Assembly (NCBI GenBank): GCA_903881505.1 | Contig: CAIRTM010000011.1 | Location: 5,612-69,611, forward strand | Length of the DNA: 64,000 nucleotides | Origin: an uncultured delta proteobacterium | Lineage (GTDB): Bacteria > Desulfobacterota > WTBG01 > CAIYCZ01 > CAIRTM01 | Direction: 5' to 3' | Part shown: positions 23,284-40,800 of the stretch, one piece after another | Layout: each line of letters begins with the position of its first letter | Numbering within the stretch: the first letter of the stretch is position 1 | Position numbers and translations under genes: made by a program | The notes under the pieces: model-generated | Databases searched by the model: none | The model's input: the letters and a program-made list of their open reading frames with translations, nothing else | What the model was told of the DNA's origin: nothing

Positions 23284-24386
23284 ATAGGGGACGTCCATAA
23301 ATTAATAAATAATTTTCAATCTAGCAGCTTGCATTTCAATTCTGCGGCCGTCTGCTCCCCGCGACGGCAAGCAAACACTATGGCTGGCTGCGTCAAACCA
23401 TATCGCTCGGCTAATGCCGTTCCGGATACACCCAGCTCATGCACTGCCCAGTATATGGCAAGACTGCGGGCTTCCACACGGCGCCGATCCCGCCCCTTCT
23501 TCCTTACTTCTTCTGCCGGCAGTCCCATTACTTCCGCTACCCGCCGTTCAATCTTATCAATGTCATAGCCCCGGCGCTTTAATTCATATCCCCGGCGGCA
23601 TGTCTCCTCTGCACGCGATAGCACCTGTTCAACAAAATCACTGTCTCCCAGTATCCGCACATCGCTCTTTACACGGTCCTGGCCTTGCAAGCGGATTTTT
23701 TTGACAGCATCCCAGCCGCCCATGCTCCGAATCAATCCGCCGCCAACCAGCTCCGGCCGCCTGCCATGTTCAATCCCCTGAGCAATAAACTGTGAATACT
23801 GTTTCCGCGCCATTTGTACCTTTTTGCCGAACATGTTGACCACATAGCCTGTCTGCTGCCAGGTGTAAGCTTTCTCTCCTATCAGGGCGCTGTGCCCAGC
23901 GTATGCGTACTTGTCCAGCTGCTTCATTGTTCTTACAATACCGGCCCTTAACGGATTTAAATGAATATAGCGGACCAGTTCCTTCAGATAGATATCCTCC
24001 TGGCATATAATTGATTTATACCGATTCTGAAACAGCTGACCGTGACGGTTATACTTACGATTGAAATATCCGGAATACCCAGTCAAAAGCCTCCTCATAA
24101 GCGTTGCCAGACCCACATCGCCAGTACGCAAAAGTAAATGCGCATGGTTGTCCATCAGTGCCCATGCATAGCAGCTCGTGTTGCTGGCCACAAGAAACTG
24201 CCCCAGCCGCTGAATAAACCACTCCTTATCCGCTGAAGTGCGAAAAATCTTTTTGCGCTCAATCCCCCGGAAGATAACGTGATGCACTACACCGGGTGCG
24301 TCCAGTCGGGCTACTCGTGGCATGCAAACACTTCTATCAAAGCACATCCCTTCCGTCAATTTATTAATTTATGGACGTCCCCTATA
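23284..24386 (-). mobile_element. IS200/IS605-like insertion element bounded by perfect 26-bp terminal inverted repeats
   Basis: ATAGGGGACGTCCATAAATTAATAA at 23284..23309, and its reverse complement at 24361..24386, flank the transposase gene. Confidence 0.75.
23316..24323 (-). CDS. IS200-like Y1 (HuH) transposase fused to a DnaA domain-IV-like C-terminal HTH
   Basis: ORF track (23316..24359, TTG start). The likely start is MPRVARLDAPGVVHHVIFRG. HuH motif MDNHAHLL and catalytic Tyr region FQNRYKS. The C-terminal RSLAIYWAVHELGVSGTALAERYGLTQPAIVFACRRGEQ resembles the DnaA C-terminal DNA-binding domain. Confidence 0.8.
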   Translation of the reverse strand: MPRVARLDAPGVVHHVIFRGIERKKIFRTSADKEWFIQRLGQFLVASNTSCYAWALMDNHAHLLLRTGDVGLATLMRRLLTGYSGYFNRKYNRHGQLFQNRYKSIICQEDIYLKELVRYIHLNPLRAGIVRTMKQLDKYAYAGHSALIGEKAYTWQQTGYVVNMFGKKVQMARKQYSQFIAQGIEHGRRPELVGGGLIRSMGGWDAVKKIRLQGQDRVKSDVRILGDSDFVEQVLSRAEETCRRGYELKRRGYDIDKIERRVAEVMGLPAEEVRKKGRDRRRVEARSLAIYWAVHELGVSGTALAERYGLTQPAIVFACRRGEQTAAELKCKLLD

Positions 24387-24536
24387 TTCTCCCCGGTTTC
24401 CTTGGCAAGAGTTCCCATACGACTAATAAAGTTCCTTCGGTCTTCTTCATCCCGGACTATCAGGCCCTTTTCTATACCTCTGATAATCACGTGATGCAAG
24501 GTTCCCGGCGCATCCAGCCTTGGCCCTCGTGGCATT
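24387..24536 (-). pseudogene. Truncated N-terminal fragment (~49 aa) of an older copy of the same transposase, interrupted by the intact element
   Basis: Manual translation MPRGPRLDAPGTLHHVIIRGIEKGLIVRDEEDRRNFISRMGTLAKETGE, then the reading frame runs into the right IR. A degenerate IR-like AACGTCCCCTAT sits at ~24607. Confidence 0.55.
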
Positions 24537-24661
24537 GACTCTTCCTTCCCTGTGCCTGTCGGTTTGATCCCTGCAGCATACTAACGTTTGTGTACTTTGT
24601 TAACAACGTCCCCTATCATGCACACTCTATCTTTTCCCTCAACCGATTCGGCGCAAAATCT

Positions 24662-25015
24662 TTATTTCTTTAAAAATGAGATTAAAAAAAGACTGGCTGA
24701 ACCTAATAGAACAATTCCCAAAATTGCAGCCGGAATCATATAATACAAAGCACCCGCCATTTCATCCAAATTTTGATTAATCATATAAGCAGCTATGCAT
24801 ATTAGTTCAAAAAAAACCAAGTGCCCCACAGAATGAATGGTGAATTTTGTATTAAAACAAAGAGGCATTGCAATCGAATATAAAATAGCCAACACTGAAA
24901 ACAGAATGAAAAAAAGCATGAGATGCCCATCTTTGCCTCTTGTAACGGCGTAAGATGCGATGACCAATAAGGTGCCAAACCAGTATAAATTGAAAATCTT
25001 CAATAGTGATTTCAC
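24662..25015 (-). CDS. Putative immunity protein of the Rhs toxin (117 aa, polytopic membrane protein)
   Basis: Its start overlaps the Rhs stop. Low-GC codon usage matches the toxin C-terminal domain. Four hydrophobic helices. Confidence 0.6.
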   Translation of the reverse strand: MKSLLKIFNLYWFGTLLVIASYAVTRGKDGHLMLFFILFSVLAILYSIAMPLCFNTKFTIHSVGHLVFFELICIAAYMINQNLDEMAGALYYMIPAAILGIVLLGSASLFLISFLKK

Positions 25016-28000: not shown

Positions 28001-31000
28001 AACTGCGTTGCCACTGTTGTGGGTGTAGCGCTGTTCTCGGTTGCAAAAACCTTTTGCTCTGCTTTTTGCCACCAGGCATCATCAGCGGACACATACACCG
28101 AAGTGGATGCGGTGATGCGGTCGCCCGATGCAGGCGCAAGCACATTATTGCCATCCACATCAAGCCCGCTCATAACCTGATTGCCGATTTCATCGTATAC
28201 ATACAGGGTGGCAGCCATGCCGGTTGCAGTGGTTTTTACAAGCTGGCCCTTGTTGTTGTAGAAATTCTCAGCTGCTTCCACGGTTCCGCCAAAGCCCGGT
28301 TTTTCAACCCGCACTGTGCGGCCGAGCATGTCGGTCACGGTTTTCTCCCACACCGGGCCGCTCAAATCTTTGGTGTACACGGTGGTGCAGCGCGTGCCGT
28401 CCGGGTTCACGCCGTATTCATAGAAGCGCGCAATGGTACCCGTGCCGCTTACCGACTTGACCTGGCCGTCAAGAAAGCGCTCCGTGATTTCGGTCGCACC
28501 TCCGGGACGGGTGACTGTTGACACGCGCCCGCCAGCAGCATAGCTGTACTTCGTCACCAGGCCGTCAGCTGCCGTGCTGCTCGTGAGCCTCCCTGCCTTG
28601 TCGTAGGCACTCTCTGTTGCAAGGCTCAGGTCTCCCGCGCTTACCGTACTCGTCAAGCGCCTGCCTGATCCATCGTAGGTATAGGCGGTGGTGACCTGGC
28701 CGTGCGCGCCCGGGCGCCTCATGTGCGTTACGCGCTTCATAAAATCATACTCATAGCCCGTCACAATACCGCGCGCATCCGTCTCATCAGTCATGCCGCA
28801 GCAGTCCCAGTTAGCGCTGGTCTCGGTGCCGTCGGAGTTTACCACCCGGATGACATGGCCCTCGTGGTCGTAGGTATTCACCGTCCAGCTCACGCTCTCA
28901 TAGCCGGAACCGGTATACACGAGCGTTTCCTGCATCATGGTGCGGCCAAGCCCGCTTGCGATGGTGTTTTCGCGGATCGTCGTGCCGGCTATGCCCTCAG
29001 GGCTGGTGACGGTTCCGCGGGTCAGCGTGTTCTGCAGGTCACTGCCTGAACCTTCAGCGAAAGTGCCCTTCGATCCGTCGTCCGGCCGGCTGTAGGCGCC
29101 GCGCACATAGCTGTAGCTGTCAAGACGGCCGTCAGAATAGGCAACGCTTCTGAGCCTGCCGGAGTTCACCGTGCCGGTGCCTTTACTGTAATACGTGCGC
29201 GTTGTGCGCTGATTGCCGGAAGCGCCGAAGGATGCGCCGGGACTGGCGGCCTGCTCGACAGTCTCGATCCGGTTGCCGTGCGCATCACGTACATAAGAAT
29301 ACCAGGCCTTCGCAACCACGGTGCCCAGTATCGTCTCTGTTATTGTGCGCGGACGATGGCTGTCTTCGGGCAGGCCGGAGTCCTGCGGATCGATCGGGGT
29401 GTAATCGTAATGCCTGGCGCGCGCTGCACCGGCGCCGGCGCCCGCTGCGGAATCAAGCCATGAGCTTACCTCAACGCTTGTGCGGCCCTGAGCGTCGTAG
29501 CTGTACGTCGTGGCCGAACCGTCGGGCTGCGTCCGGCCGAGCACCCTCCCGGTAGCCGGATCGTACTGCGTGCGGGTGGTGAGGCGGGCAGCATCCGGAT
29601 CAATTGTTTGCTCCACCACGGCCCGGCCCCATGCATACGTGCGGTACAGCGTGCTGGTTTTGGAAGCAACCCGGCCTGAGCGGTCTTTTTCCGTGCGCAC
29701 CTCGGCACGCTCATCGCTGCCAATGTCCGTGGTCTGGACCTCTACCACCTGGTCGCTGTCGCCCTTGATGAGCGTCCAGACATTGGAGCCTTCCGGCTTC
29801 CGGTATTCGTAGCGCTTTGCCGCGTCGCCGCGGTTTTCCGTGATCAGCAGGCTTTCGCACACGTCCTTTGATGCGCTCTGGTTGCGGACAGTCCACTGCG
29901 CGATCGGGCTATATCCGAAGTTGACCTCATAGATACCCTCGTCGTTTTTCTCGCCCCTGGCCGAAGGCGGGTAAAACAGCACCTGGTAGGAATAGTCGTC
30001 AACGGGCAGGATATCCACGAAGGCCTCGGGCGCAACAATTTGGCGCAGCACGTCGCGGCCGTAGAGCTTGTACACATCGTAGATTTCGGAAGAGAACTCC
30101 CCTGACGGCGCATACACGGCCTCAAGGCCTTGTGCCAGGGACTCAAGGCCCAAAGCCGCCTCGGTGTGATCGCCGACGGCATCCGGGCTTTTGGGCTTCG
30201 CTGCATCGGGGCGGAGCCTGTCAGACTGAATGAACAGCGACCCGGCGCTCATGCCGCCCGCGGCCTTGCCCAGACTGATTTTGAAATCAATGCCCTGGTT
30301 CAGGTCGATATTCTTCAGCGCACACGCCGGGCAGCCGGATTTTTGCGCGCAGGATTCGCACCCCACGGCAATGCTGCGGGTGATTTCGCAGGCCGGGCTT
30401 TTAACATCCTTTACGTTCAGCACAATAAACCCGCCGCCGCCCTCAAGCCGGGTGCTCTCATCTATGGACAGCCAGCAGCTGGTTCCCTCCTGGGCTATGA
30501 TGCTGCCCAGAATGCCGGGGCTGGTCCTCTCGTTATCGATCTGCCACTCAAGCTCCATGCCCTCGTAGGGCTCCTCGGCGCGCACTTCAACCGTTGATCC
30601 CGGCATCAGCGGATAGGCGCTTTGGTCGTCCTGTGCGTCAATATAGACGTTCTTCAGCCTGCACGGGGCTGCGATGAAGGTGCCCGTGGTGCGCACCTCG
30701 CGGCCCTCGGGAGATGTGATCAAGAGCGTTATGGGGATTTCATCGCCCGGCACAAGGTTTTTCTCATTTTTCATGCGGAAGGTAAAATACCCCTCGCCAA
30801 GGGTGCCGGCCGTGGGCACGGGGTCGCCCACAAGCTCGAAGTCCGGGTGGGTCGAGCTGATCGCGGGCGTTTTGCCGCTCACCCCGAACCCGTTCAGATT
30901 GATCAGCGCGTACTTGACCGTGCGCTCGCCCTTGTCGATCGATGGAAAGTAGCGGTTTTCCCAGTTGTACTTCCCGTTTTCATAGTCGATATAGAGTATC

Positions 31001-34000
31001 CAGGTATTGTTCATGAACTCGTTCAGGCTGTCACGGGCCTGGTACATGGCGCCGATCTGACCCATGGCTCCCGCCAGGGTGAACCCGATACCGCCCATAC
31101 CCATTGACTGAATCCGGGCCAGCTGCAGCGCCATGACATTCTGCGCTATGCCGCGGATCAATGTATTGACGGGAACATTGCCGTCGCGGATCGAATCTGA
31201 ATTGGTTATGAGGGCTGCTGCAGCGTCGGCAAGCACGCCTGCAACCTGCAGCCAGTCGCTGTATTGAGGATCGACAAAATCCCGGTTCCACTTGGCGATC
31301 TCTTCGACAATCTGGCCGCCGCCGATGACGTACGGATCGGCGCCCTTGAGGCTGATGAAATAGCCCATGCGAAAGGGCCCCATGGGATTGCCCGGCGGCG
31401 TTGTCGATATGATGCCCACGCCGGTGAAGGTGCCGACATCAATGCGCTGGGAGGGCACAAGCACGTTCTGCCCATAGTCCGTGAGCTCGCGGCTGACGAT
31501 TTCAAGGTCTTCGGGCTCAAGCTGCAAAGGGGACAGATCAAAGCTTCCCATGTCCTGCGTGAACTGATACAGCGGCACATTTCTACCCACGGCCTCGGCC
31601 ACAAGCTTCACCGCCGAGACGGACTCCTGCCGGAAGAGCTGCTGCAGCACCAGGTGCTCGAACACCGAGCCCTGCATGCCCTCGGTGCGCAGGAAGGCAT
31701 CTCTCAGCTGCCAGTCGGCATCCTGCGGCACTGTCTGGACCCGCTCGGAGACATCGACACGGATATTGGTCTCGGTGACGCGCACGGGCCATACGTCGAA
31801 CAGGTAGGACACCTTCAGGTGCCGTGCAATGCGTATATCGGAAGGGTTGCGGTACCAGCGCACGCCCAGCTGCCGGGCGATCAGGTCGGCATGCGTGTCG
31901 AGCTGGTAAAAATAGGAGCTGCCGGTGATGTGCAGCTGCTCGCCCAGCAGCCGGTCCAGCTCGCTTGTGCGCTCGCCCAAGGCTTCGTTAAAACGCGCGA
32001 GCGCCGCGGTGATGTTTTCAGAACTGGCGCGGCCCAGGCCCAGCACAATCGCGGTGTGGTCGCCGACCGTGGTGACGTAATCGCTTGTGCGGGACGGGTT
32101 CTTGACGTCCTCGCCCGGCCGTACGATTGCTACGCGCAGGGTCTCCTCGAGTCCCATGGATATCTCGGCGTCCTTGCCCGTGTTCTCCGCCACCAGACGG
32201 CCGTTCAGGCGCAGCTGCGGACGCATGTAGATCATGTACAGGGGCGTTTCCAGAAATGTGCCCGTGTATTCGGCCAGGGTTTCGTAGTCTGCGCTCGTCG
32301 AGGGCACGTAGGACAGCACCAGGCGCTGGCCCGCCACCTGTGAGGTGGGCGCGCGAAAGTCGATTTCAAGAGTTTCAAGCTCGATGTCCAGGTCAACGCC
32401 CCAGTAGGAAAGCTGCACACTCACCTGATGGTGCTCTTCAAGGGGCACGGAGCTGTAGGTCCGGTACTGCGACTGGTCGGTCTCAAAGGGCAGCGTTATC
32501 GGCAGGATCGGGAATGTCTCCTTCGCCACCTCGTCATAGCCGTAAAAATCACGCAGCGTCATGTCCGGATGGTCATCGAGAAAGTCCTGCAGCCTTGCCT
32601 GGTAGTCTGCCGTGGATGCTGTCATGAACTCCTGGAACGATTCGGTATCGATATCAACCAGGCCGCTGTCGGCGATGTTGCTGAACTGATCGAGGCTCTG
32701 GATGAACTGCTCTGCATCGAAACCAAGGCCCTGTTCATTGACCGCCCCCGCAGTGCTGCGGTACTGCTTGAAGGCCGGGGCAAGGGGCACCCACAGCTTG
32801 TGCCTCTCGCTCTCAGCGGTGCCGCGGTAGTCGGCATAGGGAAGGTAGACCTCGACACAGGTGTGCAGGAATGAAGACTGCGCGATCGTTGAGCCGCGGT
32901 AGAGGTCCTCGACATCTTTGATGTCGCCGGTCGCCAGGTAATAGCCCACCATCGCCGGCGACTTCAATCCAAGCCACTGCATTGCGCGGTTGATGTCTAC
33001 GATTGCGCGGACCTCGGCGTAGCGGGCCGGATAGCCTGAATAGCGCAAAAGTGCTATCAGCAGCGAGGCGGTATCAACATCGTTGCCGCAGCCCTCGGCG
33101 AGCGTCTGCGCGGCCCCTTTGAGGCTGCCCCGGTAGGGCTGAAAGTCGATAGTGTTCTTGACCCACTCGTATATCCGTATGGGGTTTTTGCCAAGACTGT
33201 CGGCAAGCGCCTTGATGGGCGCGGCAAATACCACATCCCCCAGCTCATCCTCGAGCAGATCGGCGGCAGCCGGAGGCGCAACTGCGGCAATCGTCGCCCG
33301 GCTGAGAAGGCCCTGAACCGAAGAAACAGAGGCAACATGAATCGGCCGCGCGCGCCGGGGCAGATCCAGGTCCCAGGCCGCAACAGGGGAAAGCAGCGGC
33401 TGTGAAGGCTGCCCGGCGGACAGGGAGTCTTTGGAATTGAATTTCACCATTTTGAAGACGCCGTTTTCTGCCAGCAGGCCGAAGCCGGGGCGGGGCATGT
33501 TGAGCTCGCCTGTCTCGGCCGCAGTCAGTTCACGGCCCTTGGGCCTTACAATCTCTGAGGAGGTTTTGCTTTTGCGGGCGTTGCGGCCTAGTGCGGAAGA
33601 ACGCTCCATGGCCTCGATACGCTTCTTGCGGCCGCCCAGCAGGCCCCGCTCGATCATACCGTTAATGTCGCCGCGCCTGGTGCAGTCTGACAGGGCTGCA
33701 AAGCGTTTCTTCAGGGCGGCTGCCTGCGCCCGGTGGCGCTCAACAAAAACATCATCGGCTCCGTTCTCAAGGAGCTCCTGCTCCATCAGCGCAAGCAACC
33801 TGTCGAGCTCGCCGGTGCGGCCGGCAAAGCGCTCTGCGCTTTTCAAAAACGCTGCCAGGGCTTTTTCAGTGCGGCGTGACTGCATATCTTCAAATTTCCG
33901 GTCGAGCTGCTGCATGTGGCTCGACATCTCACTCCCCAGCTGCTCGAAACGCTCATACGTGCCGGGGTTGAACAAACTCTGGGCACCCGGCGCCGGAACA

Positions 34001-34053
34001 AAAAACAGACAACCTGCAAGAAGGGCACCTGTAAGCAGAGACAGCTTTTTCAT
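25012..34053 (-). CDS. Rhs/YD-repeat polymorphic toxin (3013 aa). Signal peptide, transglutaminase-like core, long YD-repeat shell, RHS core, and a C-terminal alpha/beta-hydrolase (lipase/PGAP1-like, Tle-like) toxin domain.
   Basis: N-terminal MKKLSLLTGALLAGCLFFVPAPGA. Transglutaminase-like core GCGNDVDTASLLIALLRYSGYPARY. Dozens of YDxxGR YD repeats. RHS core ending YRYYSPVLGRWLNRDPMGE...DPLGD. C-terminus VVVLVHG...IIAHSQGT (GxSxG nucleophile elbow). GC content falls over the last ~900 bp. Confidence 0.9.
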   Translation of the reverse strand: MKKLSLLTGALLAGCLFFVPAPGAQSLFNPGTYERFEQLGSEMSSHMQQLDRKFEDMQSRRTEKALAAFLKSAERFAGRTGELDRLLALMEQELLENGADDVFVERHRAQAAALKKRFAALSDCTRRGDINGMIERGLLGGRKKRIEAMERSSALGRNARKSKTSSEIVRPKGRELTAAETGELNMPRPGFGLLAENGVFKMVKFNSKDSLSAGQPSQPLLSPVAAWDLDLPRRARPIHVASVSSVQGLLSRATIAAVAPPAAADLLEDELGDVVFAAPIKALADSLGKNPIRIYEWVKNTIDFQPYRGSLKGAAQTLAEGCGNDVDTASLLIALLRYSGYPARYAEVRAIVDINRAMQWLGLKSPAMVGYYLATGDIKDVEDLYRGSTIAQSSFLHTCVEVYLPYADYRGTAESERHKLWVPLAPAFKQYRSTAGAVNEQGLGFDAEQFIQSLDQFSNIADSGLVDIDTESFQEFMTASTADYQARLQDFLDDHPDMTLRDFYGYDEVAKETFPILPITLPFETDQSQYRTYSSVPLEEHHQVSVQLSYWGVDLDIELETLEIDFRAPTSQVAGQRLVLSYVPSTSADYETLAEYTGTFLETPLYMIYMRPQLRLNGRLVAENTGKDAEISMGLEETLRVAIVRPGEDVKNPSRTSDYVTTVGDHTAIVLGLGRASSENITAALARFNEALGERTSELDRLLGEQLHITGSSYFYQLDTHADLIARQLGVRWYRNPSDIRIARHLKVSYLFDVWPVRVTETNIRVDVSERVQTVPQDADWQLRDAFLRTEGMQGSVFEHLVLQQLFRQESVSAVKLVAEAVGRNVPLYQFTQDMGSFDLSPLQLEPEDLEIVSRELTDYGQNVLVPSQRIDVGTFTGVGIISTTPPGNPMGPFRMGYFISLKGADPYVIGGGQIVEEIAKWNRDFVDPQYSDWLQVAGVLADAAAALITNSDSIRDGNVPVNTLIRGIAQNVMALQLARIQSMGMGGIGFTLAGAMGQIGAMYQARDSLNEFMNNTWILYIDYENGKYNWENRYFPSIDKGERTVKYALINLNGFGVSGKTPAISSTHPDFELVGDPVPTAGTLGEGYFTFRMKNEKNLVPGDEIPITLLITSPEGREVRTTGTFIAAPCRLKNVYIDAQDDQSAYPLMPGSTVEVRAEEPYEGMELEWQIDNERTSPGILGSIIAQEGTSCWLSIDESTRLEGGGGFIVLNVKDVKSPACEITRSIAVGCESCAQKSGCPACALKNIDLNQGIDFKISLGKAAGGMSAGSLFIQSDRLRPDAAKPKSPDAVGDHTEAALGLESLAQGLEAVYAPSGEFSSEIYDVYKLYGRDVLRQIVAPEAFVDILPVDDYSYQVLFYPPSARGEKNDEGIYEVNFGYSPIAQWTVRNQSASKDVCESLLITENRGDAAKRYEYRKPEGSNVWTLIKGDSDQVVEVQTTDIGSDERAEVRTEKDRSGRVASKTSTLYRTYAWGRAVVEQTIDPDAARLTTRTQYDPATGRVLGRTQPDGSATTYSYDAQGRTSVEVSSWLDSAAGAGAGAARARHYDYTPIDPQDSGLPEDSHRPRTITETILGTVVAKAWYSYVRDAHGNRIETVEQAASPGASFGASGNQRTTRTYYSKGTGTVNSGRLRSVAYSDGRLDSYSYVRGAYSRPDDGSKGTFAEGSGSDLQNTLTRGTVTSPEGIAGTTIRENTIASGLGRTMMQETLVYTGSGYESVSWTVNTYDHEGHVIRVVNSDGTETSANWDCCGMTDETDARGIVTGYEYDFMKRVTHMRRPGAHGQVTTAYTYDGSGRRLTSTVSAGDLSLATESAYDKAGRLTSSTAADGLVTKYSYAAGGRVSTVTRPGGATEITERFLDGQVKSVSGTGTIARFYEYGVNPDGTRCTTVYTKDLSGPVWEKTVTDMLGRTVRVEKPGFGGTVEAAENFYNNKGQLVKTTATGMAATLYVYDEIGNQVMSGLDVDGNNVLAPASGDRITASTSVYVSADDAWWQKAEQKVFATENSATPTTVATQLSRFTGLGSGGLVSENVSIDTLGNRVVSRSVINRAAGTETATVDYPDSTIDAVSFSVNGLLMSSTGKSGVTLTYAYDDLGRRVGLTDPRTGRSTTGYTSHGRVAWVQDAAGNRTLYNYNSATGEKISETNPDNTTVRYSYNNQGQITRQWGSATYPVSYEYDGYGRLARMLTYREGAGFDGETFPAGASGDETLWIYDEATGLLKAKQDAEGKQVAYTYASGGRLASRTWAREGGTIVTSYNYDPATGELAAIDYSDATPDVQFSYDRLGRQKTVSDAAGSRTFAYNSALQLETETMTGLMNETITRDYDGLGRSSGFSLGAGYDITYAYDPTGRFINVGWTGDSLSGNAVYSYVPNSHLLQSTTTDRGLITTYSYEPNRNVRTNIENAYNAQIISNYAYAYDSMGRRTSVKNSGAAFDRAAFNLYGYNSRSELTGSQSYIGTDTGDTTTPVNAEARTFAYDNIGNRESAIEALTKQITYDPNPLNQYTQITTNAGAPVTDDLHYDEDGNLVAGSVAGAVRTALTYDAENRLISVEPQTPAPGTRKVAFTYDYMSRRVQKQVFDYNADSWSAASDTRFLYDGWNLICEVSIPTSNPGLQTSVLYVWGLDLSGTLQGAGGIGGLLTRISDNAHYYTCDANGNVGQLVDTDGIIAAHYEYDPFGNTINSNGLLAEANPYRFSTKYLEAETGLYYYGYRYYSPVLGRWLNRDPMGEAGGVNLYNFVFNNTNDCIDPLGDVVVLVHGVNTDAAWFSTAEKGLKAYWNSTGQNIQEIIPFKWGDPSTSFGLSRKQGGQPNYATDSVAGMRDSNRKYMMVSVDRLKRILNLLNSIKEKEKSCEPISIIAHSQGTIISLAALQGGSKVDTFIMMGSPLDVLPFNSETNDLLKALSQIRGKTYNYWSPNDEWAWFKGGIGAKGDEIAKIQELGWITNRKFAPDETMGKYILPHDKPFDEYNHSDYMLSADFFTNIHGPDLAPAPDIIVSKNPAINQIKAMGSIW

Positions 34054-34823
34054 TAAAGAGCTCCTTTAGTGCGGTGATGGTCGTTTGTGGACGAAGTAGG
34101 CGTTGTGGACACTGTGGACTCAGTTGACCGGCACCGGGAGCGCACGCGGTAGAGGCGCTCGGTGAAACCGCCTTCATTTTCAAAGGCCTGTGCAAGGGAA
34201 GCGAGCTGACGGTCAAGCAGCGCACAGGCAACGGCCACAAGCGCAAGAGCGCCGTTGGCGGCTATTTCGGGAAAACCGGGAGTGGACATGGTGGACGATG
34301 TGGACGGCGTGGACGAAAAACCTTTATTAATATTTTTTTCAAAATGTCCACTGCGTCCACATCGTCCACTTGGTCCACTGTTGTACACCTCCCGCACCCA
34401 GTGCGCAAACTCATCGGCCGTTGTGCAGCGCCGGTCAACCAGGGCCTGCCTGCGCGCGTCCCCGCGCTGCCAGAGGGGCAGGCCCCGCTGGCGCAGAAAA
34501 TCCTCATAATCGACCCGGAGTTCCTCAAGGCTTGCGCGTGCGACACTGGTGAGCCGCAGCTCGGTTTTTTTCGAAGTGCCGGATGCCTGGCTGCCCTCGG
34601 CGATATTTTGCACGCCTGAGCGCGCAGCCTGCACCATCTGGTCGCGCGTTCGGCTGCGCCGGTCGACATAGCGCTCGCAGAAGCGCACGGTCACGTCATG
34701 CACGAGACGGGCGACTTGAAAGCTTTTCAGCCCGCGGTAGCCGCCGTGTTTTGGTATAAGCTTTTCAGTCATTCTGGGGCTCGCATTCAGGCAGTGTGCC
34801 GATGAACGGTTCATGGCCGACAT
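34053..34823 (-). CDS. Four-helix-bundle protein (TIGR02436 / 23S rRNA intervening-sequence protein family, DGR Avd-like fold). The 3-prime third overlaps the repeat/palindrome region.
   Basis: The likely start is MTEKLIPKHGG. It overlaps the upstream stop as ATGACTGA. Family motifs QMVQAARSGVQNIAEGS and LTSVARASLEEL. The ORF then reads through the GTGGAC arrays as STPSTSSTMST. Whether the downstream ~380 bp is coding is uncertain. Confidence 0.65.
   Translation of the reverse strand: MSAMNRSSAHCLNASPRMTEKLIPKHGGYRGLKSFQVARLVHDVTVRFCERYVDRRSRTRDQMVQAARSGVQNIAEGSQASGTSKKTELRLTSVARASLEELRVDYEDFLRQRGLPLWQRGDARRQALVDRRCTTADEFAHWVREVYNSGPSGRCGRSGHFEKNINKGFSSTPSTSSTMSTPGFPEIAANGALALVAVACALLDRQLASLAQAFENEGGFTERLYRVRSRCRSTESTVSTTPTSSTNDHHRTKGAL
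34084..34381. repeat. Arrays of head-to-tail 9-bp TGTGGACNN repeats (resembling high-GC DnaA boxes), arranged as a ~37-bp-arm palindrome around a 27-bp AT-rich core, plus a third array
   Basis: 34279..34316 GTGGACATGGTGGACGATGTGGACGGCGTGGACG. AT core AAAAACCTTTATTAATATTTTTTTCAAAA. 34344..34381 TCCACTGCGTCCACATCGTCCACTTGGTCCAC (inverted). 34084..34128 TGTGGACGAAGTAGGCGTTGTGGACACTGTGGACTCAGTTGACC. Confidence 0.6.
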
Positions 34824-37800
34824 TCATGGAGCCCTGCCATGACTTGACGATAACTGTGCCTGAAATAATGCCGCTGTTGTTTGTCAGTTCAGCCAGCGGC
34901 GCAAGCACACTGCCATTCAATGCCACTGCCGTACAGTCAAAGGACGTCGCCTCAAAAAAATTAAAAAGAATATAGCCGCGCATCCAGCCCGGAACAGCCA
35001 TGCCGATATGCGAAACTTCCGTATGCTCGCCACTGATATTTATGATAACCGTTGCGTTTCGCGGGATATCGCTCAGGTGCAGGCTGCTGGCGCTTCGCAG
35101 CTGCTGAGCGCTGATGTTGAATATCTGGACGGGGTTTGTGCCGCTGCCGCGCAGGGTCAAAACAGCGGCACAGGTTGATGCGGTTCCGGTGGGCGCAAGG
35201 CCGCCAAGACGCGTTGAGAGCAGGCGAAAGCGCGATGATTCCTGCTCGAAGCCAAAGGGTAGCTCTGCATTGCCGGCAACCGTTGCGCCCCGAGCCATTG
35301 TGCGGCGCACCATGCAGGACACACCGTCAACACTGCCGGAGGCGACGATGCTGCCCCGGTGGACCACGCCGATTCCGTACTCAATGTCGCCGCCGGAGAC
35401 AAGAACGCCACGCTCCGGAGCGCCGTGCGGCACATATGTGCCCATAACGACATTCTCAAGCTCGACATCACCGGCCGCGGCAACACGACCCGAAACGGTT
35501 GCATGCTGCGATGCCAATGGGCCAAGCGAAAAAATGCTGTAGTCCTGCGCAACGCCCAGACTATCGACACACTCAACCGGCTGATTGGGTATGGTAATCG
35601 CGCAGGTGTCGGGAATGCTGTCGAGCTCTCCGTCATTGACGATGAGCTGTATAATATAGGCACCGGCTTTATCGGCTGTAAAGACCGGGTCGGGCAGCGT
35701 GCTGTCATTGAGCACGGCCGTGCTGCCTTCAGGCGCGTTTACTATCGCCCACTGGTACGTAAGCGGGTCGGCATCGGGGTCATGGCTGGCTGAAGCGTCA
35801 AGACGCACAGCATCGCCTTCATTCACTTCACGGTCAGGACCGGCATCGGCAAGCGGGCGGCGGTTGCGCGTTGTGACCTCCAGTTCAACAGGATCGCTTG
35901 CATACTCAAAATCGCGTACAACGAGCTGCAGCCGGTACACACCCGCCATGTCAGCTTGGAAAACAGGATCGGAAGCAAAACGATCGGACAGTTCAGCCGC
36001 GCTGCCTTCGGGCCGGGCGGCCAAGGTCCACTCATACTGCACGATCGTATCGTTGTCGGGATCATAGCTTGCGGATGCTTCAAGCTGCACCGTTTCACCG
36101 ACCTCGATGAGCAGGCTTTCACCGGCGACCGCAAGCGGCGGGCGGTTTTCGGTGGTGACGAGCACGCTGTCGCTGCGGCTCCGGCACATGCCGTCAGAAA
36201 CGCTCAGGCGCAGCTCATACGCGCCGTGCCGATCCGGCAGCAGCGTCGGATTATAGATATCAGAACCGGCAAGCCGGGTGATGCTTCCCTCCGGGGACGC
36301 AGCCAGAGCCCAGCTATAGCTGATGCTGTCGCCGTCAGCATCGTAACTGCCGGAGCCGTCCAAGCGGGCAAAATCACCAACATGTACCAGGATATTTTCA
36401 CCGGCAACGGCAACCGGACAGCGGTTAATAATGCCCAGCGGGGCGAATGCAAGGTTGTGAGCGGTACCGTCAATCATGGTGGACAATATAATCACATAGT
36501 CGCCGCAGGCCAGACCTGCGCTCTCCAGCACGCTCGTGCCGCTGCAGTCGTTACCATCAAACATGCAGGTGGTTTCGAAAACCGTTGTCTCCTGCCGCGT
36601 GGAGGTGTTAACAGCCCTGGAAACCAATGCAGTTTCATCGAGTGCGGTATTACCGCTGTTGGTAACGCCATAGTTCAGCGCAACATCCTGCCCGCGATGC
36701 ACCTGTGCTGGCTCTGCGGTAAGAAAGGCGCCCAGCCCCCTGCCGCCGTCCGCGCTGGGTGCAATGGTGAAATGCGTTCTGTCCGATGCAACCGGGGTAC
36801 CGTCCTGCTCAACGCTCAGGTTCAGCGTGTAGAGGCCGGGGGCATGTCGCGCCGTATTCCAGGCCTGCTCCCAGGAGCGGCCTGCAAGCGGCGGCAGCAC
36901 CCCAACAGCATGCTCATCGGTATAGAGAACGTCACCTCTGGGGCTGAGCAGCTCGACAAAAGCGCTCAGGCCGCTAAATGCATAATTGGGCGAAAAGCTC
37001 TGCAGCACACTGCTGATGCGCACCTGCGCATGATCATAATAGAGCCTGCGCTCCGTGCTGACATCGGCGCCGACCGTCCGATCAGCCAGGATCACAAAGG
37101 GGGCAGCTGCCGCGGCGCGGCGCTGACCGTCTTCAAACAGGGTGGCCGCAACACTCAACTGCCCGGCCGGCGCGCTGCCCGTATTCCATACAAAGTCATC
37201 TATAACCACGGTGCCGCCGGGCGGCAGCACAACGATACGTCCTTTCGCAGGCTCGGCGGCGACCGTTCCGTTACTGTCAAGCATTGCCACGTCAAGAAGT
37301 ACGGTCCGTTCGACGGGAGAACTGTTGGTTATACGGGCTGTAATGACAACATCCTCGTCATATCCATACTGATCGCGGTCAAGGTTCAGCTCGAGCGCAA
37401 GTCCGCTGGGCACAACACGGATCAGGGCACTTCCTGTGTTGTTGTTCTCATTCTGTTCCCTGATCATGCCTTGGGGATCGGACTGCACGATGATGCGGCG
37501 CTCGCCCGTGCGCCCGGCTGTGTCAAACAGAGCGCTTGCCGTGCGGCTCCCGCCATGCGGCACGATCTCATGGATGATGCGCTCCGCGATCAGTTTTTCA
37601 GCCGCGACCTCGCTGTCGTAGAAATGCACCGTGACGCCGTCGACATCCGCTCCGAGGTTTCGCACCGCAGCCGACACGCTTACCAGCGCGCCTTCAACCG
37701 GAGATGCGTCTGCAAAGCTGATATCCGTATCGCGCACCTCAAGGTCGCTCAGGCTGCGGGGCACGACATCGATAGGTCGAACAGCACTGTTGTTGACCCG

Positions 37801-40800
37801 GTTGACATCATTGACCGCATTGACAGGATCAACAACAACATGGATATAGTTGCTGCCCAGCTGACCGTGCGTGTCCCACGGTTTGAAAACAATATCGCTT
37901 GCACCGGGCGCAAGCGATCCCAGCGCCTGATCGGACCCGATCGGCTCAGTGCCGTTCAGGAAGCGAACCGAGGTCGGGGCGGACGCGATGAGGCCGATAT
38001 TACGCACCCGGGCCGCGATGAGGACCGTGCGGCCCTCATCAGGCGCTTCGGGGCTGAACATGATATCCGTGCCTGCAATCGCAAGATCGGCAACAACATC
38101 GGACGTGTTCTCAACAACGAACGCACCCACGCCATAGCCCGGAACACCTTCAATGGTCCGCGCTTCGATGCTGACGATATCGGTACCGGCCGAATGAGCG
38201 GCGCTCAGCACATGGGTGCCGATAAACACCCCGCCAATCTTGGCAAATGCGATGCTGTGGGTGCTGCCTTCGTATTCGGTGACGCTGCCCGAGACCTGCT
38301 GCACCTGAAAGGCATCCTCTTCGGGTTCGACGGTTACAATCACCGTATCACCGGGCTGATAAGCAGGCTTATCAAACGATATCGCCAGCTCAGGCCCCGG
38401 GGTATAGTCAGCCAACGCAAGGGCCCTGACCGCATAACCTGTAGGGTTTGTGCTGCTGCGCAGCCCTGGCAGTATCGGCCAGCCGCCGTCAGCATTCTGC
38501 ACGGCCAGCAGCCATTGCACGGCACGTGCGGTTCCTACCCCCTGGTTATCGGTCTGGATCAGGGCAAGAAGGACGCAGGCTGTATCCTGAACCGTGCTTT
38601 CATACTCGCCCCAGCCGCCATCCGCATTCTGACGCTGCTGCAGCCAGGCAACAGCGTCATCGACCTCTGTCTGGTAACCACCAAACTTGTTAAGTATTTT
38701 TAAACTGTTGGCAGCATGAGAAATAGTTTCCCAATTGACTGTACCTGTCTTCTGGAGCAGAAGCCACTCAATTGCCTGCTCTGCAAGGTCTCTCTGCGCG
38801 CCGGTAAGCATGACACCATCAGACAGCAAACCCAGCACGCAAAGAATCGTAGGATTGATTTCTGACGGACCCCCGCCTGCAAGACTGTACCGGTACCAGC
38901 CGCCATCGTCATTCTGCTGTCCAAAGAGATATTGAATCACTCCAGCCATGGCGTCAGTTTTGCCGCTGACATTTAGCCCTGTTTGACCCAAAGCCCTGAG
39001 AACTGCTGCGCCCGCAGTAAGATGGTGCTGGGGAATCATGGAAAACTGTATGTGCCAGTTGCCATTGCTTTTCTGCGTGCTGATAATACGGACAAGTGCC
39101 TCCACTATTGTTGCATTGTATCCGCCGGCATCATTCATGCTATCCAATGCAAGAAGTGCCAGTGATGTGGGGATGGCCTGGTCATAGGGGTTTTGAAAAT
39201 CTCCATCCGGCTCAACCATCATGGTCTTAAGCCATTGAAACGCCTTCCTGATGGCTGCCCCGCCGCCTGTGTCACTGCTGCGATACAGGCTTATGACAGA
39301 CTCTGCCGTCATACGAGGAGACTCCAGCGGCGTAGCTGATGGCTTTTCATCAACCCAGCCGCCATTCGCAGACTGAAGGGCCTTCAGGTCGTTCATCGTG
39401 GCCGCTATATCGCCGGCATTTCGTCCGGTGTAAAAAAGCATGGCAAGATAAGCGCTTTTATAATTGGCAACACTCCATATGTTGTCCCTGTACCAATTGA
39501 CCGCCTGTGTAATTGCCGCCTGACCGGCACTGTCGCTTTCATGGCAGGCCCAATGCAGACCGGCAACGGCATAATGCATATTCGTAGGCGCACTTGCCTC
39601 TCCGGCATAGAACCCCCAAAACCCGTCAGGGTTACGGCTGTCGAGCAGCCATTGCCGTGCTGCCTGCACTGCAGGATCCTCACGGCTTACCCCGGCTTCC
39701 ATTAAAGCCCACAGGGCATGCCCTGTATCCCGCACCGGAGAACTGTTCAACACGCCATCATCCCGCAAATACCTTTGCAGCCATATGAGTGCATTACTGA
39801 TGACAGGTGATGAAATATCCTCTCCAACAGCAACCAGGGCCAGAACTGAGTCTGCTGTTGCAGAAACGTTGTTTTCCCAGCTGCCGTTGGTTGCCTGCGT
39901 TTCACGAACACGCCGCAGAATCGTCGCATACATGCCGCTAAACTCGGGATCGAGGTAGCGGCCTGAGATATGCAGGGCATGAAGCGCAGCAGCATTGGCC
40001 CGCGCTGGAGCAAAATCTTCCCATCCGCCAAGGCTGTGCTGATGCTCAACGAGCCACTGGACGCCCTGAGAGACAGCCCTGTCCTTGAGGTTCTGTGAAT
40101 ACGCGATGGCAACAGTGGCAGCGGCGGTATTGTTTGCCTCATTGCTCTCGGCCAGCCGGCCCTGACCGGTTCCGTCGTCGTCAACCACGACAAACAGGTG
40201 ATACTCTCCTTCGACCGGATCTTCCCAGATAAGCGTGACATCTGCATACGCGCCCGAGGCAAGCCCGGAGGCTGTCTGCTCAACGCCGAGCAGTATGGCG
40301 CCCTGAGCCGGATCGCCGCTATAAAAGGCGACATCAATGCCGGGATCAACATCCACGGTGCCGGTATTGCTGACACTCACAGTTATTGCAGCACTGTCGG
40401 GCAGATTGTTCGGATTGCGACGGACACGCGAAGCCGCAAGATCAAGCACGGGATCTTCTTCAGGCACACCCACGGTGAGCGCAAACGATGCGCTGTTGTT
40501 GGCTGTGCCGGATTCCGGCACGAATCCACCCGGATCTGCGACAACATGCAGTGTGTGAGCGCCTGCCGGCAGGGAAATTGAAAAGGAGGCCGGTGCGCTG
40601 GCGTCGGCGGCAACCAGCGGCAGATTCACCCGGCCAAGTTCGGGGCTGGTGTCAGGCGGTCCGCTGTATACAGCCGCTTCGACATCGTAGGCCTCATGCG
40701 TACCGATATTGTGTATAACGGCATCCAGTGTGAAGGATTCTCCGGGCAGAAGAGGGCCGGAGTCAACCGAGAGGTCATCTGCAGTTATTGACAGATCGGG

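What the first reader, a model, noticed from the sequence alone, without database searches (positions are those of the whole stretch)
34053..34440. Head-to-tail 9-bp TGTGGACNN repeats (DnaA-box-like for high-GC bacteria) form a large palindrome around an AT-rich core, inside or after an Avd-like four-helix-bundle gene
Two arms of about four consecutive GTGGACNNN 9-mers lie in inverted orientation around a 27-bp AT-rich spacer (34279..34381). A third array sits ~150 bp downstream (34084..34128). The 9-mer TGTGGACGA/TGTGGACAC is close to the reverse complement of the high-GC DnaA box TTGTCCACA. Clustered boxes beside an AT-rich element resemble an origin, a DUE or a DnaA-titration site. The window also holds an IS200-like transposase fused to a DnaA domain-IV-like HTH (23316..24359), and these repeats are a plausible binding target for such a domain. 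The alternatives are a regulatory operator array for the downstream Rhs toxin gene, or simply a coding repeat: the frame reads (V-D-x)n on one arm and STPST on the other strand. Any of these would be unusual for this location.
Basis: partly seen in the sequence, partly recalled or inferred. Interest (0 to 1): 0.75.

Follow-up and report, generated by a model that had tools for sequence, protein, structure and literature searches.

The report
Conserved nine-base repeat arrays inside gene
The repeats are real but are not replication-origin boxes: they are arrays of a six-base word (RTGGAC) repeated every nine bases, translated as a floppy loop of a widespread four-helix-bundle protein, and preserved at the DNA level across more than a dozen bacterial phyla, which points to an undescribed nucleic-acid signal that travels with this gene.

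Summary
Observation confirmed. Eleven of the window's 21 GTGGAC/GTCCAC hexamers lie in 34087-34378, at strict 9-nt spacing: 4 + 4 inverted units around a 31-nt AT-rich core, plus a third array.

All lie inside one minus-strand gene (34056-34772), a TIGR04258 "four helix bundle suffix" protein. They encode a predicted disordered loop and tail.

The hexamer is selected as nucleotides, not as amino acids:
- In 65 relatives from more than 12 phyla, loop Gly codons are 73% GGA, against 12% elsewhere in the same genes.
- In four orthologues, hexamer positions vary at 4/66 sites and spacers at 20/21.
- The same arrays occur in non-coding 5' leaders, in all three phases.
- Distant subfamilies carry a different 9-nt-period word (GTCNGAC) at the same three places: leader, loop, tail.

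Stand-alone palindromes built from the same units also exist in intergenic DNA.

The DnaA-box/origin reading fails: flanking positions do not fit, there is no GC-skew switch, and the site is intragenic.

Best guess (inferred, about 0.4): gene-linked recognition arrays for a sequence-specific binder, most simply the encoded Avd-like protein. Rivals are a structure-only RNA hairpin and a REP/PATE-like selfish repeat. I found no description of it in the searched literature.

The parts
34056..34772 (-). Gene for a 239-aa TIGR04258 'four helix bundle suffix domain' protein (stop codon 34053-34055)
   Evidence: NCBIfam TIGR04258 scores 66.9 bits (cutoff 40) on residues 168-215, and TIGR02436 scores 33 bits (cutoff 24) on residues 16-87. 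Pfam PF05635 scores 31.8 bits. More than 8000 homologues were found. The AF2 model's best PDB folds are 2GSC and 2RLD.
34380..34772 (-). N-terminal part of the bundle (residues 1-131; helices 17-35, 41-63, 68-95, 106-114, 119-131)
   Evidence: AF2 model, pLDDT about 90 over this stretch. Near-invariant motif DQMVQAARSGVQNIAEGSQASGTSKK.
34346..34379 (-). 'G arm': on the mRNA (R-UGGAC-NNN) x4, coding SGPSGRCGRSGH. On the + strand it reads GTCCAC at 34346, 34355, 34364 and 34373.
   Evidence: The hexamers are invariant in 4 orthologues while the spacers vary.
34315..34345 (.). 31-nt AT-rich core (13% G+C) between the arms, coding (H)FEKNINKGF(S)
   Evidence: Present only in the window's closest relatives. 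In other family members the gap between arms is 1-40 nt.
34281..34314 (-). 'S arm': on the mRNA (NNN-GUCCAY) x4, coding STPSTSSTMSTP. On the + strand it reads GTGGAC at 34282, 34291, 34300 and 34309.
34128..34271 (-). Suffix domain (residues 168-215), which forms the long fourth helix of the bundle plus a short helix
   Evidence: TIGR04258 match. AF2 helices 167-199 and 204-218.
34087..34128 (-). Tail array: GUCCAC units on the mRNA (+ strand GTGGAC at 34087, 34105, 34114; degenerate units at 34096 and 34123), coding the disordered C-terminus STESTVSTTPTSST
   Evidence: 88 of 119 close homologues have a tail run of S-[TIM] of 3 or more. pLDDT is below 50 for residues 219-239.
34051..34066 (-). 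Junction with the downstream 3013-aa Rhs/transglutaminase gene: Shine-Dalgarno AAGGAG (34061-34066), and the stop of the 4HB gene overlapping the next ATG (TAATG, 34051-34055)
   Evidence: The AAGGAG...TAATG junction is conserved in orthologues.
34765..34772 (-). Junction with the upstream 2885-aa gene: the 4HB start ATG lies within ATGACTGA, overlapping the upstream stop
   Evidence: The same three-gene order occurs in L081 and L082. In L085 only the 4HB and downstream genes are held, because the contig ends upstream.

Best explanation
The repeats are the in-gene copy of a cis-acting nucleic-acid element that belongs to the TIGR04258 gene family.

Shown:
- The element is an array of a short recognition word (here R-TGGAC, or GTCCA-Y on the other strand) placed every 9 nt.
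- It sits in up to three conserved places: the 5' leader, the loop between the third and fourth bundle helices, and the 3' tail.
- On the coding strand, G-type arrays lie upstream and the complementary S-type arrays downstream.
- Where the arrays fall inside the ORF they are read in the one frame that gives harmless Gly- and Ser/Thr-rich disordered peptide. Translation therefore runs through them.
- Selection acts on the hexamer itself. The 3-nt spacers and the encoded residues drift freely.

Inferred:
- The hexamers are binding sites for a sequence-specific factor that co-evolves with the gene.
- The simplest candidate is the encoded Avd-like four-helix-bundle protein. Avd-type bundles are oligomeric nucleic-acid binders; this rests on my own knowledge of bAvd, not on a test here.
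- That protein would bind cooperatively to successive units on its own DNA or transcript. The effect would be to regulate itself and the operon it sits in.
- The inverted arms add a foldable hairpin whose formation would compete with binding.
For: 1. Family-wide conservation. 63 of 64 genome-derived genes from more than 12 phyla have a loop array, and none lacks arrays altogether. Of 119 close homologues, 116 show G-[LPHQR] runs and 109 show S-[TIM] runs.

2. Selection at the nucleotide level.
- Loop Gly codons are GGA 73% against 12% in the rest of the same genes; Ser TCC is 58% against 12%.
- GTCCAC occurs at 25 per kb in the loop against 0.03 per kb elsewhere.
- 89% of residues after the periodic Gly are L/P/H/Q/R, which share only a C-initial codon.
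- In four syntenic orthologues, hexamer positions vary at 4/66, spacers at 20/21, and codon positions 1/2/3 at 23/19/62%.

3. The same arrays occur in non-coding 5' leaders in 29 of 62 loci. They occur in all three phases, 20-60 nt before the SD/ATG, and still with period 9.

4. Polarity. 5' arrays are G-type 29 to 2; 3' arrays are S-type 18 to 2.

5. The motif co-varies with protein subfamily while the architecture is kept.
- L214 has GTCNGAC x5 in the leader, x5 in the loop and x4 in the tail.
- L212/L213 have GTCGGAC x4 in the loop, read in another frame (G-R-T), and GTCCGAC x4 in both flanks.
- L210 has GTCRGAC x11 in the loop.

6. Intragenic spacers are not complementary: 47 of 186 positions pair, against 62 expected. 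One-mismatch variants are symmetric between the arms, and wobble-compatible versus incompatible changes are 25 to 25. This fits word recognition better than selection for a continuous helix.

7. L074 lacks the loop array but has complete G-to-S modules immediately before and after the gene.

8. The repeats fall in AF2-disordered segments 135-161 and 219-239.
Against: - No binding was or could be tested, so the identity of the binder is pure inference.
- Palindromic modules built from the same RTGGAC units occur in intergenic DNA with no 4HB gene within about 1 kb. The word is therefore not exclusive to this gene.
- Only 11 of 120 array-bearing metagenome loci held the gene.
- The window itself has no 5' array, so an autoregulatory role at the start codon cannot apply here.
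- The hairpin potential is itself conserved (median z = -4.25 in 57 genes). A structure-only role is therefore not excluded.
- The motif/subfamily co-variation rests on only four loci from three distant subfamilies.
Confidence: 0.4

Rival explanations
1. Structure-only RNA element. The complementary arrays fold in the operon transcript, either as a local hairpin or as long-range pairing between leader, loop and tail arrays. The fold would control mRNA processing (for example RNase III cleavage, as for the 23S rRNA intervening sequences that gave the protein family its name), stability, or translational coupling to the next gene. No dedicated hexamer-binding protein would be involved.
For: - Window hairpin -63.8 kcal/mol, z = -7.
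- Across 57 genes the median z is -4.25, and 88% have z below -2.
- The genes sit inside co-directional operons, often with overlapping stop and start codons.
- 5' arrays lie just upstream of the SD, and tail arrays just upstream of the next gene's SD.
- The order is always G before S on the sense strand.
- The R/Y position next to the pentamer correlates between arms (Spearman 0.45, p = 5e-4).
Against: - A helix needs complementarity, not one fixed word. Yet the same hexamer is kept across phyla while the spacers are less complementary than chance.
- There is no excess of G.U-compatible over incompatible variants (25 to 25), and the variant spectra of the two arms are symmetric.
- Arm sizes are uncorrelated (rho 0.14).
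- Some genes have only one arm type (L062, L065, L040, L042).
- There is no Rfam match above threshold.
Confidence: 0.2
2. Selfish REP/MITE/PATE-like repeat. Nonamer-array palindromes would be a dispersed, mobile or self-propagating element, possibly mobilised on single-stranded DNA by Y1 (RAYT/TIRYT-type) transposases. The element would have colonised permissive places: intergenic DNA, and in-frame disordered loops as with Rickettsia palindromic elements. The 4HB-suffix gene would merely be a tolerated or hitch-hiking host.
For: - Stand-alone modules lie next to unrelated housekeeping genes, as near-perfect long hairpins (L094 -120, L178 -143, L151 -93 kcal/mol).
- Similar modules occur at two loci of one metagenome (L093, L134).
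- In L212 an approximately 85-nt array-bearing element recurs three times in 2.4 kb.
- In L074 and L212 the gene is bracketed by directly repeated modules, as in IS200/IS605 ends.
- In L053 GTCCAC arrays lie in-frame inside a neighbouring N6-methyltransferase gene.
- The window holds a TIRYT transposase whose inverted repeats carry GGGAC|GTCCAT.
Against: - The loop array is at the same position in essentially every family member and is co-inherited with the gene. It is not sporadic.
- The hexamers stay intact while the spacers saturate, which argues for long-term purifying selection rather than recent insertion.
- No other array occurs in the 64-kb window.
- No TIRYT homologue was found in 1.1 Mb around arrays.
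- TIRYT ends carry a single word, not arrays.
- The published analysis found no REP-like sequences near this transposase subclass (PMC6006769).
Confidence: 0.2
3. DnaA-box cluster: an origin, a DUE-flanking array or a datA-like DnaA titration site, as proposed by the first reader.
For: GTCCAC equals positions 3-8 of the high-GC DnaA box TTGTCCACA (my knowledge). The period is 9 nt. In this window an AT-rich core lies between the arms.
Against: - Box positions 1, 2 and 9 are unconstrained, and T is under-represented before the core.
- 36% of units have A in place of the box's G/A-T pairing partner, giving ATGGAC.
- The AT-rich core is absent from most relatives.
- There is no GC-skew inflection.
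- The site is inside a translated ORF between two giant genes of one operon.
- The element follows a gene family at many loci and phyla, often inside type I R-M operons.
Confidence: 0.02
4. Ordinary coding low-complexity linker. The Gly-x-x and Ser-Thr-x repeats would be selected as protein, and DNA identity would be a by-product of recent slippage.
For: The arrays are translated in frame. They encode predicted disordered segments. Unit number varies among relatives in steps of 3 codons.
Against: - Synonymous and first-codon positions are fixed, while the amino acids at spacer positions vary.
- Arrays also occur in non-coding leaders in all three phases.
- The same word is read in different frames in other subfamilies: G-R-T against S-D-x.
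Confidence: 0.03

Closest known systems
Rickettsia palindromic elements (RPEs): palindromic repeats inserted in frame in protein genes (own knowledge)
   Same: A palindromic DNA repeat lies inside an ORF. It is translated, and it sits in a surface or disordered segment that tolerates it.
   Different: RPEs are 100-150-bp dispersed insertions found sporadically in many unrelated genes of one genus. Here the element is built of 9-nt units. It is fixed at one loop of one gene family across phyla, its word is under purifying selection, and it has non-coding copies in the leader and tail.
REP/BIME elements with RAYT genes, and TIRYT Y1 transposases (PMC6006769)
   Same: Both involve short palindromic, hairpin-forming repeats, dispersed intergenic copies, and a gene flanked by its own repeats. 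A TIRYT lies in this window, and its ends contain the pentamer pair.
   Different: REPs are single palindromes of 20-40 nt, specific to a species and extragenic. Here the repeats are arrays of a 6-nt word at 9-nt phase, conserved across phyla, and intragenic. The associated gene encodes a four-helix bundle with no HUH nuclease motifs.
Arrays of short repeats bound cooperatively by small oligomeric proteins. Examples are omega-repressor heptads, ParR/parC and ParG iterons on DNA, and TRAP (G/U)AG x11 and HutP UAG repeats on RNA (own knowledge)
   Same: Both have 3-10 contiguous copies of a short word with fixed spacing and free spacers. The copies occur in direct and inverted blocks, located at the leader or start of the regulated gene in many relatives.
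   Different: Period and word differ. Here the arrays also lie inside the coding region of the putative binder's own gene. No binding has been shown.
23S rRNA intervening sequences carrying an S23p/PF05635 ORF (own knowledge)
   Same: The protein superfamily is the same. In both, the ORF is associated with inverted repeats able to form a stem in the transcript, and it is inserted inside another transcription unit.
   Different: The present element is not in rRNA. Its stems are made of periodic hexamers, and one stem lies within the ORF.
DnaA-box clusters (oriC, datA, DARS) (own knowledge)
   Same: Both have 9-bp periodicity and a GTCCAC core.
   Different: Flanking box positions are not conserved, the context is intragenic, there are no origin features, and the element is linked to a gene family.

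Membership tests
TIGR04258 four-helix-bundle suffix protein (the gene that holds the repeats) | C-terminal suffix-domain HMM above the curated cutoff | tested here: met
   66.9 bits against a cutoff of 40, on residues 168-215.
TIGR04258 four-helix-bundle suffix protein (the gene that holds the repeats) | N-terminal TIGR02436/PF05635 four-helix-bundle region and fold | tested here: met
   TIGR02436 scores 33 bits against a cutoff of 24. PF05635 scores 31.8 bits, just under the gathering score of 33.8. The best PDB folds for the AF2 model are 2GSC and 2RLD of the S23p family, with foldseek probability 1.0 but E = 0.035 to 0.16.
DnaA-box cluster / oriC / datA | 9-mer matching TT(A/G)TCCACA, including positions 1, 2 and 9 | tested here: not met
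   In 217 S-arm units, T is 19% and 16% at the two positions before the core, and A is 29% after it. The core's last base is T in 25% of units.
DnaA-box cluster / oriC / datA | Origin context: intergenic position, GC-skew switch, AT-rich unwinding element as a constant feature | tested here: not met
   The site is inside an ORF. Cumulative GC skew is monotonic through 34 kb. The AT-rich core is limited to the closest relatives.
DnaA-box cluster / oriC / datA | Binding by DnaA | not testable with these tools
   Needs EMSA or footprinting.
REP/BIME (REPtron) | Extragenic, multicopy and dispersed in the same genome | tested here: not met
   In the window the arrays are intragenic, and no other array occurs in 64 kb. 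Dispersed intergenic modules do exist in other organisms.
REP/BIME (REPtron) | Flank or associate with a cognate Y1 (RAYT) transposase gene | tested here: inconclusive
   A TIRYT lies 10 kb away, and its inverted repeats contain GGGAC|GTCCAT. No arrays sit at its ends, and no homologue was found in 1.1 Mb of array loci.
In-frame palindromic insertion (RPE-like) | Palindromic repeat translated within a tolerant segment of a protein | tested here: met
   The ORF is continuous through the arrays, and the downstream suffix domain is conserved in frame. The arrays map to AF2 segments with pLDDT below 50.
In-frame palindromic insertion (RPE-like) | Sporadic presence or absence among orthologues, and insertion into many unrelated genes | tested here: not met
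   A loop array is present in 63 of 64 family members. Only occasional arrays are seen in neighbouring genes (L053).
Cooperative short-repeat operator, centromere or RNA-leader arrays (omega, ParR, TRAP, HutP type) | At least 3 contiguous copies of a short conserved word at fixed spacing with free spacers | tested here: met
   The period is 9 in 113 of 142 G-arm steps and 134 of 154 S-arm steps. The hexamer is conserved and the 3 spacer nt are unconstrained.
Cooperative short-repeat operator, centromere or RNA-leader arrays (omega, ParR, TRAP, HutP type) | Located at the promoter or leader of the regulated gene | tested here: inconclusive
   29 of 62 relatives have a leader array 20-60 nt before the ATG. 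The window has none, and no promoter-like site was found in 33900-34900.
Cooperative short-repeat operator, centromere or RNA-leader arrays (omega, ParR, TRAP, HutP type) | Sequence-specific binding by an oligomeric protein | not testable with these tools
   No binding assay or complex prediction was available.
23S rRNA intervening sequence | Located in a 23S rRNA helix, with terminal repeats forming an RNase III stem | tested here: not met
   There is no rRNA or any Rfam family in the window. The gene lies between two protein genes.

The most novel reading that the evidence does not exclude
TIGR04258 genes and their nonamer arrays form a previously unrecognised two-part system. An Avd-like four-helix-bundle protein would have its cognate recognition word written, in frame, into a disordered loop of its own gene. 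The same word would also be in its leader and tail, and in dispersed palindromic modules. The word would co-evolve with the protein subfamily. The system would spread horizontally as an operon-embedded cassette (type I R-M operons, giant-gene operons). It would act either as a self-recognising regulatory device or as a new kind of mobile cassette.
Probability: 0.3. Interest if true: 0.85.

Novelty: new variant of a known kind. Interest (0 to 1): 0.68.

Why it matters
PF05635/TIGR02436 four-helix-bundle genes (Avd, 'S23 ribosomal protein') number in the thousands and have no known role outside diversity-generating retroelements. This work shows three things about one large subfamily. It always carries a nucleotide-level-selected 9-nt-period word array. 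The word changes with the subfamily. The same units build free-standing palindromes. Together these give the first concrete, testable handle on what these proteins recognise.

It is also a clear example of coding sequence whose primary constraint is not the protein. That matters for gene annotation, for dN/dS analyses, and for the interpretation of 'low-complexity linkers'.

Finally, it may bear on how accessory genes embed in restriction-modification and giant-toxin operons.

Tried and rejected
- **DnaA box / oriC.** Rejected on the position weight matrix, the GC skew and the context.
- **Continuous RNA helix under covariation.** Spacer complementarity is below chance, there is no wobble bias, and arm sizes are uncorrelated. 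I did not build a covariance model, because unit number varies and no stable alignment exists.
- **Rfam.** Only sub-threshold generic miRNA-hairpin matches at the palindrome; nothing at gathering score in the window.
- **Defence or phage origin.** No PADLOC or PHROGs hit, and no relative in 2.9 million viral contigs.
- **Promoter or terminator in the AT-rich core.** None on the relevant strand.
- **Co-location of arrays with the TIRYT transposase.** None found in 1.1 Mb. TIRYT homologues have conserved inverted repeats but no arrays.
- **PF05635 genes next to stand-alone modules.** None among 92 ORFs.
- **Literature.** Searches for the family names, the repeat words and nonamer repeats found no description.
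- **Acido-Lenti-1 RNA.** It lies beside modules in only 2 of 23 loci scanned, so I treated it as incidental.

Full report
**1. The observation**

- On the + strand, GTGGAC starts at 34282, 34291, 34300 and 34309.
- GTCCAC starts at 34346, 34355, 34364 and 34373.
- The arms 34281-34314 and 34346-34379 are 85% complementary.
- The core between them is 31 nt and 13% G+C.
- A third array has GTGGAC at 34087, 34105 and 34114, with two degenerate in-phase units.

Eleven of the window's 21 GTGGAC/GTCCAC hexamers fall in these 292 bp. All seven exact TGGAC-N4-TGGAC matches in 64 kb are here. Folded as RNA the palindrome gives -63.8 kcal/mol (z = -7.0). Folded as DNA it gives -36.9 kcal/mol (z = -7.05).

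**2. Where it lies**

Everything is inside one minus-strand ORF, 34056-34772 (239 aa).
- Its ATG overlaps the stop of an upstream 2885-aa gene.
- Its stop overlaps the ATG of a downstream 3013-aa Rhs/transglutaminase gene (TAATG).

The protein is a TIGR04258 'four helix bundle suffix domain' protein. The suffix domain scores 66.9 bits against a cutoff of 40. The N-terminal TIGR02436/PF05635 bundle covers residues 16-87.

An AlphaFold2 model (mean pLDDT 73.6) places the two inverted arms and the core in a disordered loop (residues 135-161). That loop lies between helix 119-131 and the long helix 167-199, which is the suffix domain and completes the bundle. The third array encodes the disordered tail 219-239. 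The best solved folds are 2GSC and 2RLD of the S23p family.

On the mRNA the order is:
- bundle helices;
- (R-UGGAC-NNN)x4, coding SGPSGRCGRSGH;
- the core;
- (NNN-GUCCAY)x4, coding STPSTSSTMSTP;
- the suffix helix;
- (GUCCAC)x3-4;
- the stop codon.

**3. Conservation is at the nucleotide level**

The family is very large: more than 8000 hits, and 565 confirmed loci in species-representative genomes. It is 60-72% identical across many phyla:
- Thermodesulfobacteriota
- Acidobacteriota
- Planctomycetota
- Verrucomicrobiota
- Kiritimatiellota
- Nitrospirota
- Chloroflexota
- Chlorobi
- Bacteroidota
- Actinobacteriota
- several candidate phyla

In 65 genes:
- Loop Gly codons are GGA in 73%, against 12% in the rest of the same genes.
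- Ser codons are TCC in 58%, against 12%.
- The top loop hexamers are GTCCAC (25 per kb, against 0.03 per kb elsewhere) and GTGGAC (20 per kb, against 0.18 per kb).

The position matrix gives R-TGGAC (G 59%, A 36%) and GTCCA-Y (C 67%, T 25%), with three unconstrained spacer bases. The period is 9 in 113 of 142 G-arm steps and 134 of 154 S-arm steps. After the periodic glycine, 89% of residues are L, P, H, Q or R. That set shares only a C-initial codon.

The closest relatives sit in the same three-gene synteny. In a four-way DNA alignment of these orthologues:
- Hexamer positions vary at 4 of 66 sites.
- Spacer positions vary at 20 of 21 sites.
- Codon positions 1, 2 and 3 of the folded parts vary at 23, 19 and 62%.

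The hexamer is thus better conserved than second codon positions, while the residues it helps encode change freely.

**4. The arrays are not confined to coding sequence**

In 29 of 62 genome loci, a G-type array of 2-9 units lies in the non-coding leader.
- It sits 20-60 nt before the SD and ATG.
- It occurs in all three phases relative to the gene.
- It still has period 9.

S-type arrays lie in the tail or just after the stop in 18 of 64 loci. The polarity is strong: G-type 29 to 2 upstream, and S-type 18 to 2 downstream. No gene lacks arrays altogether. L074, which has lost the loop array, carries complete G-to-S modules immediately before and after the gene.

**5. Motif turnover with conserved architecture**

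Homologues at 45-50% identity carry a different 9-nt-period word at the same places.
- L214 has GTCNGAC x5 in the leader, x5 in the loop (read as S-D-x) and x4 in the tail.
- L212/L213 have GTCGGAC x4 in the loop, read in another frame (G-R-T). They have GTCCGAC x4 in an approximately 85-nt element on both sides of the gene, and again 1.4 kb downstream.
- L210 has GTCRGAC x11 in the loop.

Among 42 full-length 50%-cluster representatives, TGGAC-type, S-D-type and T-D-type loops all occur. The architecture (leader, loop and tail arrays, period 9) is therefore kept while the word changes with the protein subfamily. Only four distant loci were examined at the DNA level.

**6. DNA or RNA; word or helix**

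The foldability of the module is conserved: median z = -4.25 in 57 genes. Several results nevertheless argue against selection for a continuous helix.
- Intragenic spacers pair less than chance (47 of 186 positions, against 62 expected).
- Arm sizes are uncorrelated.
- The R/Y flank shows only a modest association between arms.
- In-phase one-mismatch variants are symmetric between arms (TAGAC 10 | GTCTA 10, and so on).
- G.U-compatible and incompatible transitions are equal, 25 to 25.

This fits recognition of a word, possibly on duplex DNA, better than selection for a helix. The numbers are small, and a role for the hairpin is not excluded.

**7. Stand-alone modules**

Many G-only arrays are probably unrelated coding repeats.

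About 19 loci have the G-to-S palindrome. Twelve or thirteen of these lie in intergenic DNA beside unrelated housekeeping genes, with no PF05635 gene nearby. There the arms are near-perfect hairpins including the spacers: L094 at -120, L178 at -143 and L151 at -93 kcal/mol. GTCCAC arrays also occur in frame inside a neighbouring N6-methyltransferase gene in L053.

The units therefore also build a dispersed, REP-like element. This is the main evidence for the selfish-repeat rival.

**8. Context**

Neighbours are mostly co-directional, often with overlapping stop and start codons. About a third are type I R-M genes: HsdS upstream in 11 of 57, HsdR downstream in 10 of 57. The rest are diverse. 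The window's subclade is stably embedded between two giant genes. No relatives occur in viral contigs, PADLOC or PHROGs.

**9.

The DnaA/oriC reading fails.
- The box positions outside the GTCCAC core are not conserved.
- There is no GC-skew switch.
- The site is intragenic and follows a gene family.

The transposase at 23319-24359 does combine Y1_Tnp with a DnaA-C-like HTH. It belongs to the published TIRYT class, for which the authors noted that the inverted repeats do not resemble DnaA boxes (PMC6006769). Its conserved inverted repeats, TAGGG(G)ACGTCCAT(A/T)AAT, contain one head-to-head GGGAC|GTCCA pair. That is suggestive, but the ends carry no arrays, and no homologue lies in 1.1 Mb around arrays. 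It remains a lead.

**10. Explanation and novelty**

Shown:
- The repeats form a translated, nucleotide-level-selected, 9-nt-period word array.
- The array is intrinsic to the TIGR04258 family.
- Its placement and polarity are conserved.
- Its word is specific to the protein subfamily.

Inferred:
- The words are sites for a co-evolving sequence-specific binder, most simply the encoded Avd-like protein (confidence about 0.4).
- That protein would act on its own gene or transcript and on the operon.

Rivals are a structure-only RNA element (0.2) and a REP/PATE-like selfish repeat (0.2). The closest known analogues are Rickettsia in-frame palindromic elements, REP/RAYT systems, cooperative short-repeat operator or leader arrays, and the rRNA intervening sequences of the same protein superfamily. 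None of these matches on all defining features.

Full-text searches found no description of these arrays. I rate the finding as a new variant of known kinds of cis-element, of considerable interest.

Noticed in passing
window 23285-24384 (gene 23319-24359, - strand); fragment 24359-24580: This is a complete TIRYT-type insertion sequence. It encodes a Y1 transposase with a DnaA-C-like HTH. It is bounded by perfect inverted repeats: TAGGGGACGTCCATAAATTAATAAAT (about 23285-23310) and its complement (about 24359-24384). A truncated second transposase copy lies next to it, inside a low-GC stretch (0.47 at 22-28 kb). The same inverted repeats occur in homologues L206-L208.
   Followed up: partly
window 25012-34053 and 34765-43422 (- strand); L081, L082, L085: The window has a three-gene block: a giant CARDB/prenyltransferase/PKD protein, the 4HB-suffix gene, and a giant transglutaminase-core Rhs/YD protein with a C-terminal DUF900-like hydrolase. 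Stop and start codons overlap at both junctions. L081 and L082 show all three genes. L085 shows only the 4HB and transglutaminase-core genes, because its contig ends upstream.
   Followed up: partly
L053 4250-4290 and 4895-4930: Two GTCCAC x4 arrays lie in frame (STSSTPSTPST and STPSTPSTPSTP) inside the neighbouring N6-adenine methyltransferase/HsdS-like gene of a type I R-M operon. They are downstream of the 4HB-suffix gene and in the same orientation as its tail array.
   Followed up: partly
L094 79-159; L178 959-1154; L151 2321-2407; L143 557-648: These are stand-alone intergenic palindromes built of RTGGAC nonamers. Their arms are almost perfectly complementary, including the spacers (-78 to -143 kcal/mol), unlike the intragenic copies. 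L094 is followed by a T-run, like a terminator.
   Followed up: partly
L123 2815-2859 (-); L134 10713-10759 (-): Acido-Lenti-1 RNA motif (RF01687) matches above the gathering score lie inside the 230-nt core of one array-flanked module (L123) and just upstream of another (L134). The motif was not seen in 21 other loci scanned or in the window.
   Followed up: partly
L074 2866-2965 and 3566-3640; L212 100-133, 926-959, 2324-2339: In these loci the 4HB-suffix gene is bracketed by directly repeated array-bearing modules, an arrangement resembling IS200/IS605-type ends or cassette boundaries. In L212 the approximately 85-nt element recurs after the next two genes.
   Followed up: partly
proteins P0246, P0327, P0272: Many 50%-cluster representatives match only the N-terminal domain. 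Their C-terminal parts read the arrays in another frame, for example PVHPVHQVHPVH, which is GTCCAC in frame 0. This suggests frameshifts at the arrays, either real or from assembly errors.
   Followed up: no
L022, L019, L042, L054 upstream of the 4HB start: In several loci the leader array has no stop codon in the gene's frame. Automatic ORF calls therefore extend the protein with WT-, VD- or G-x-x-type repeat peptides. Start-codon annotation in this family is likely often wrong.
   Followed up: no
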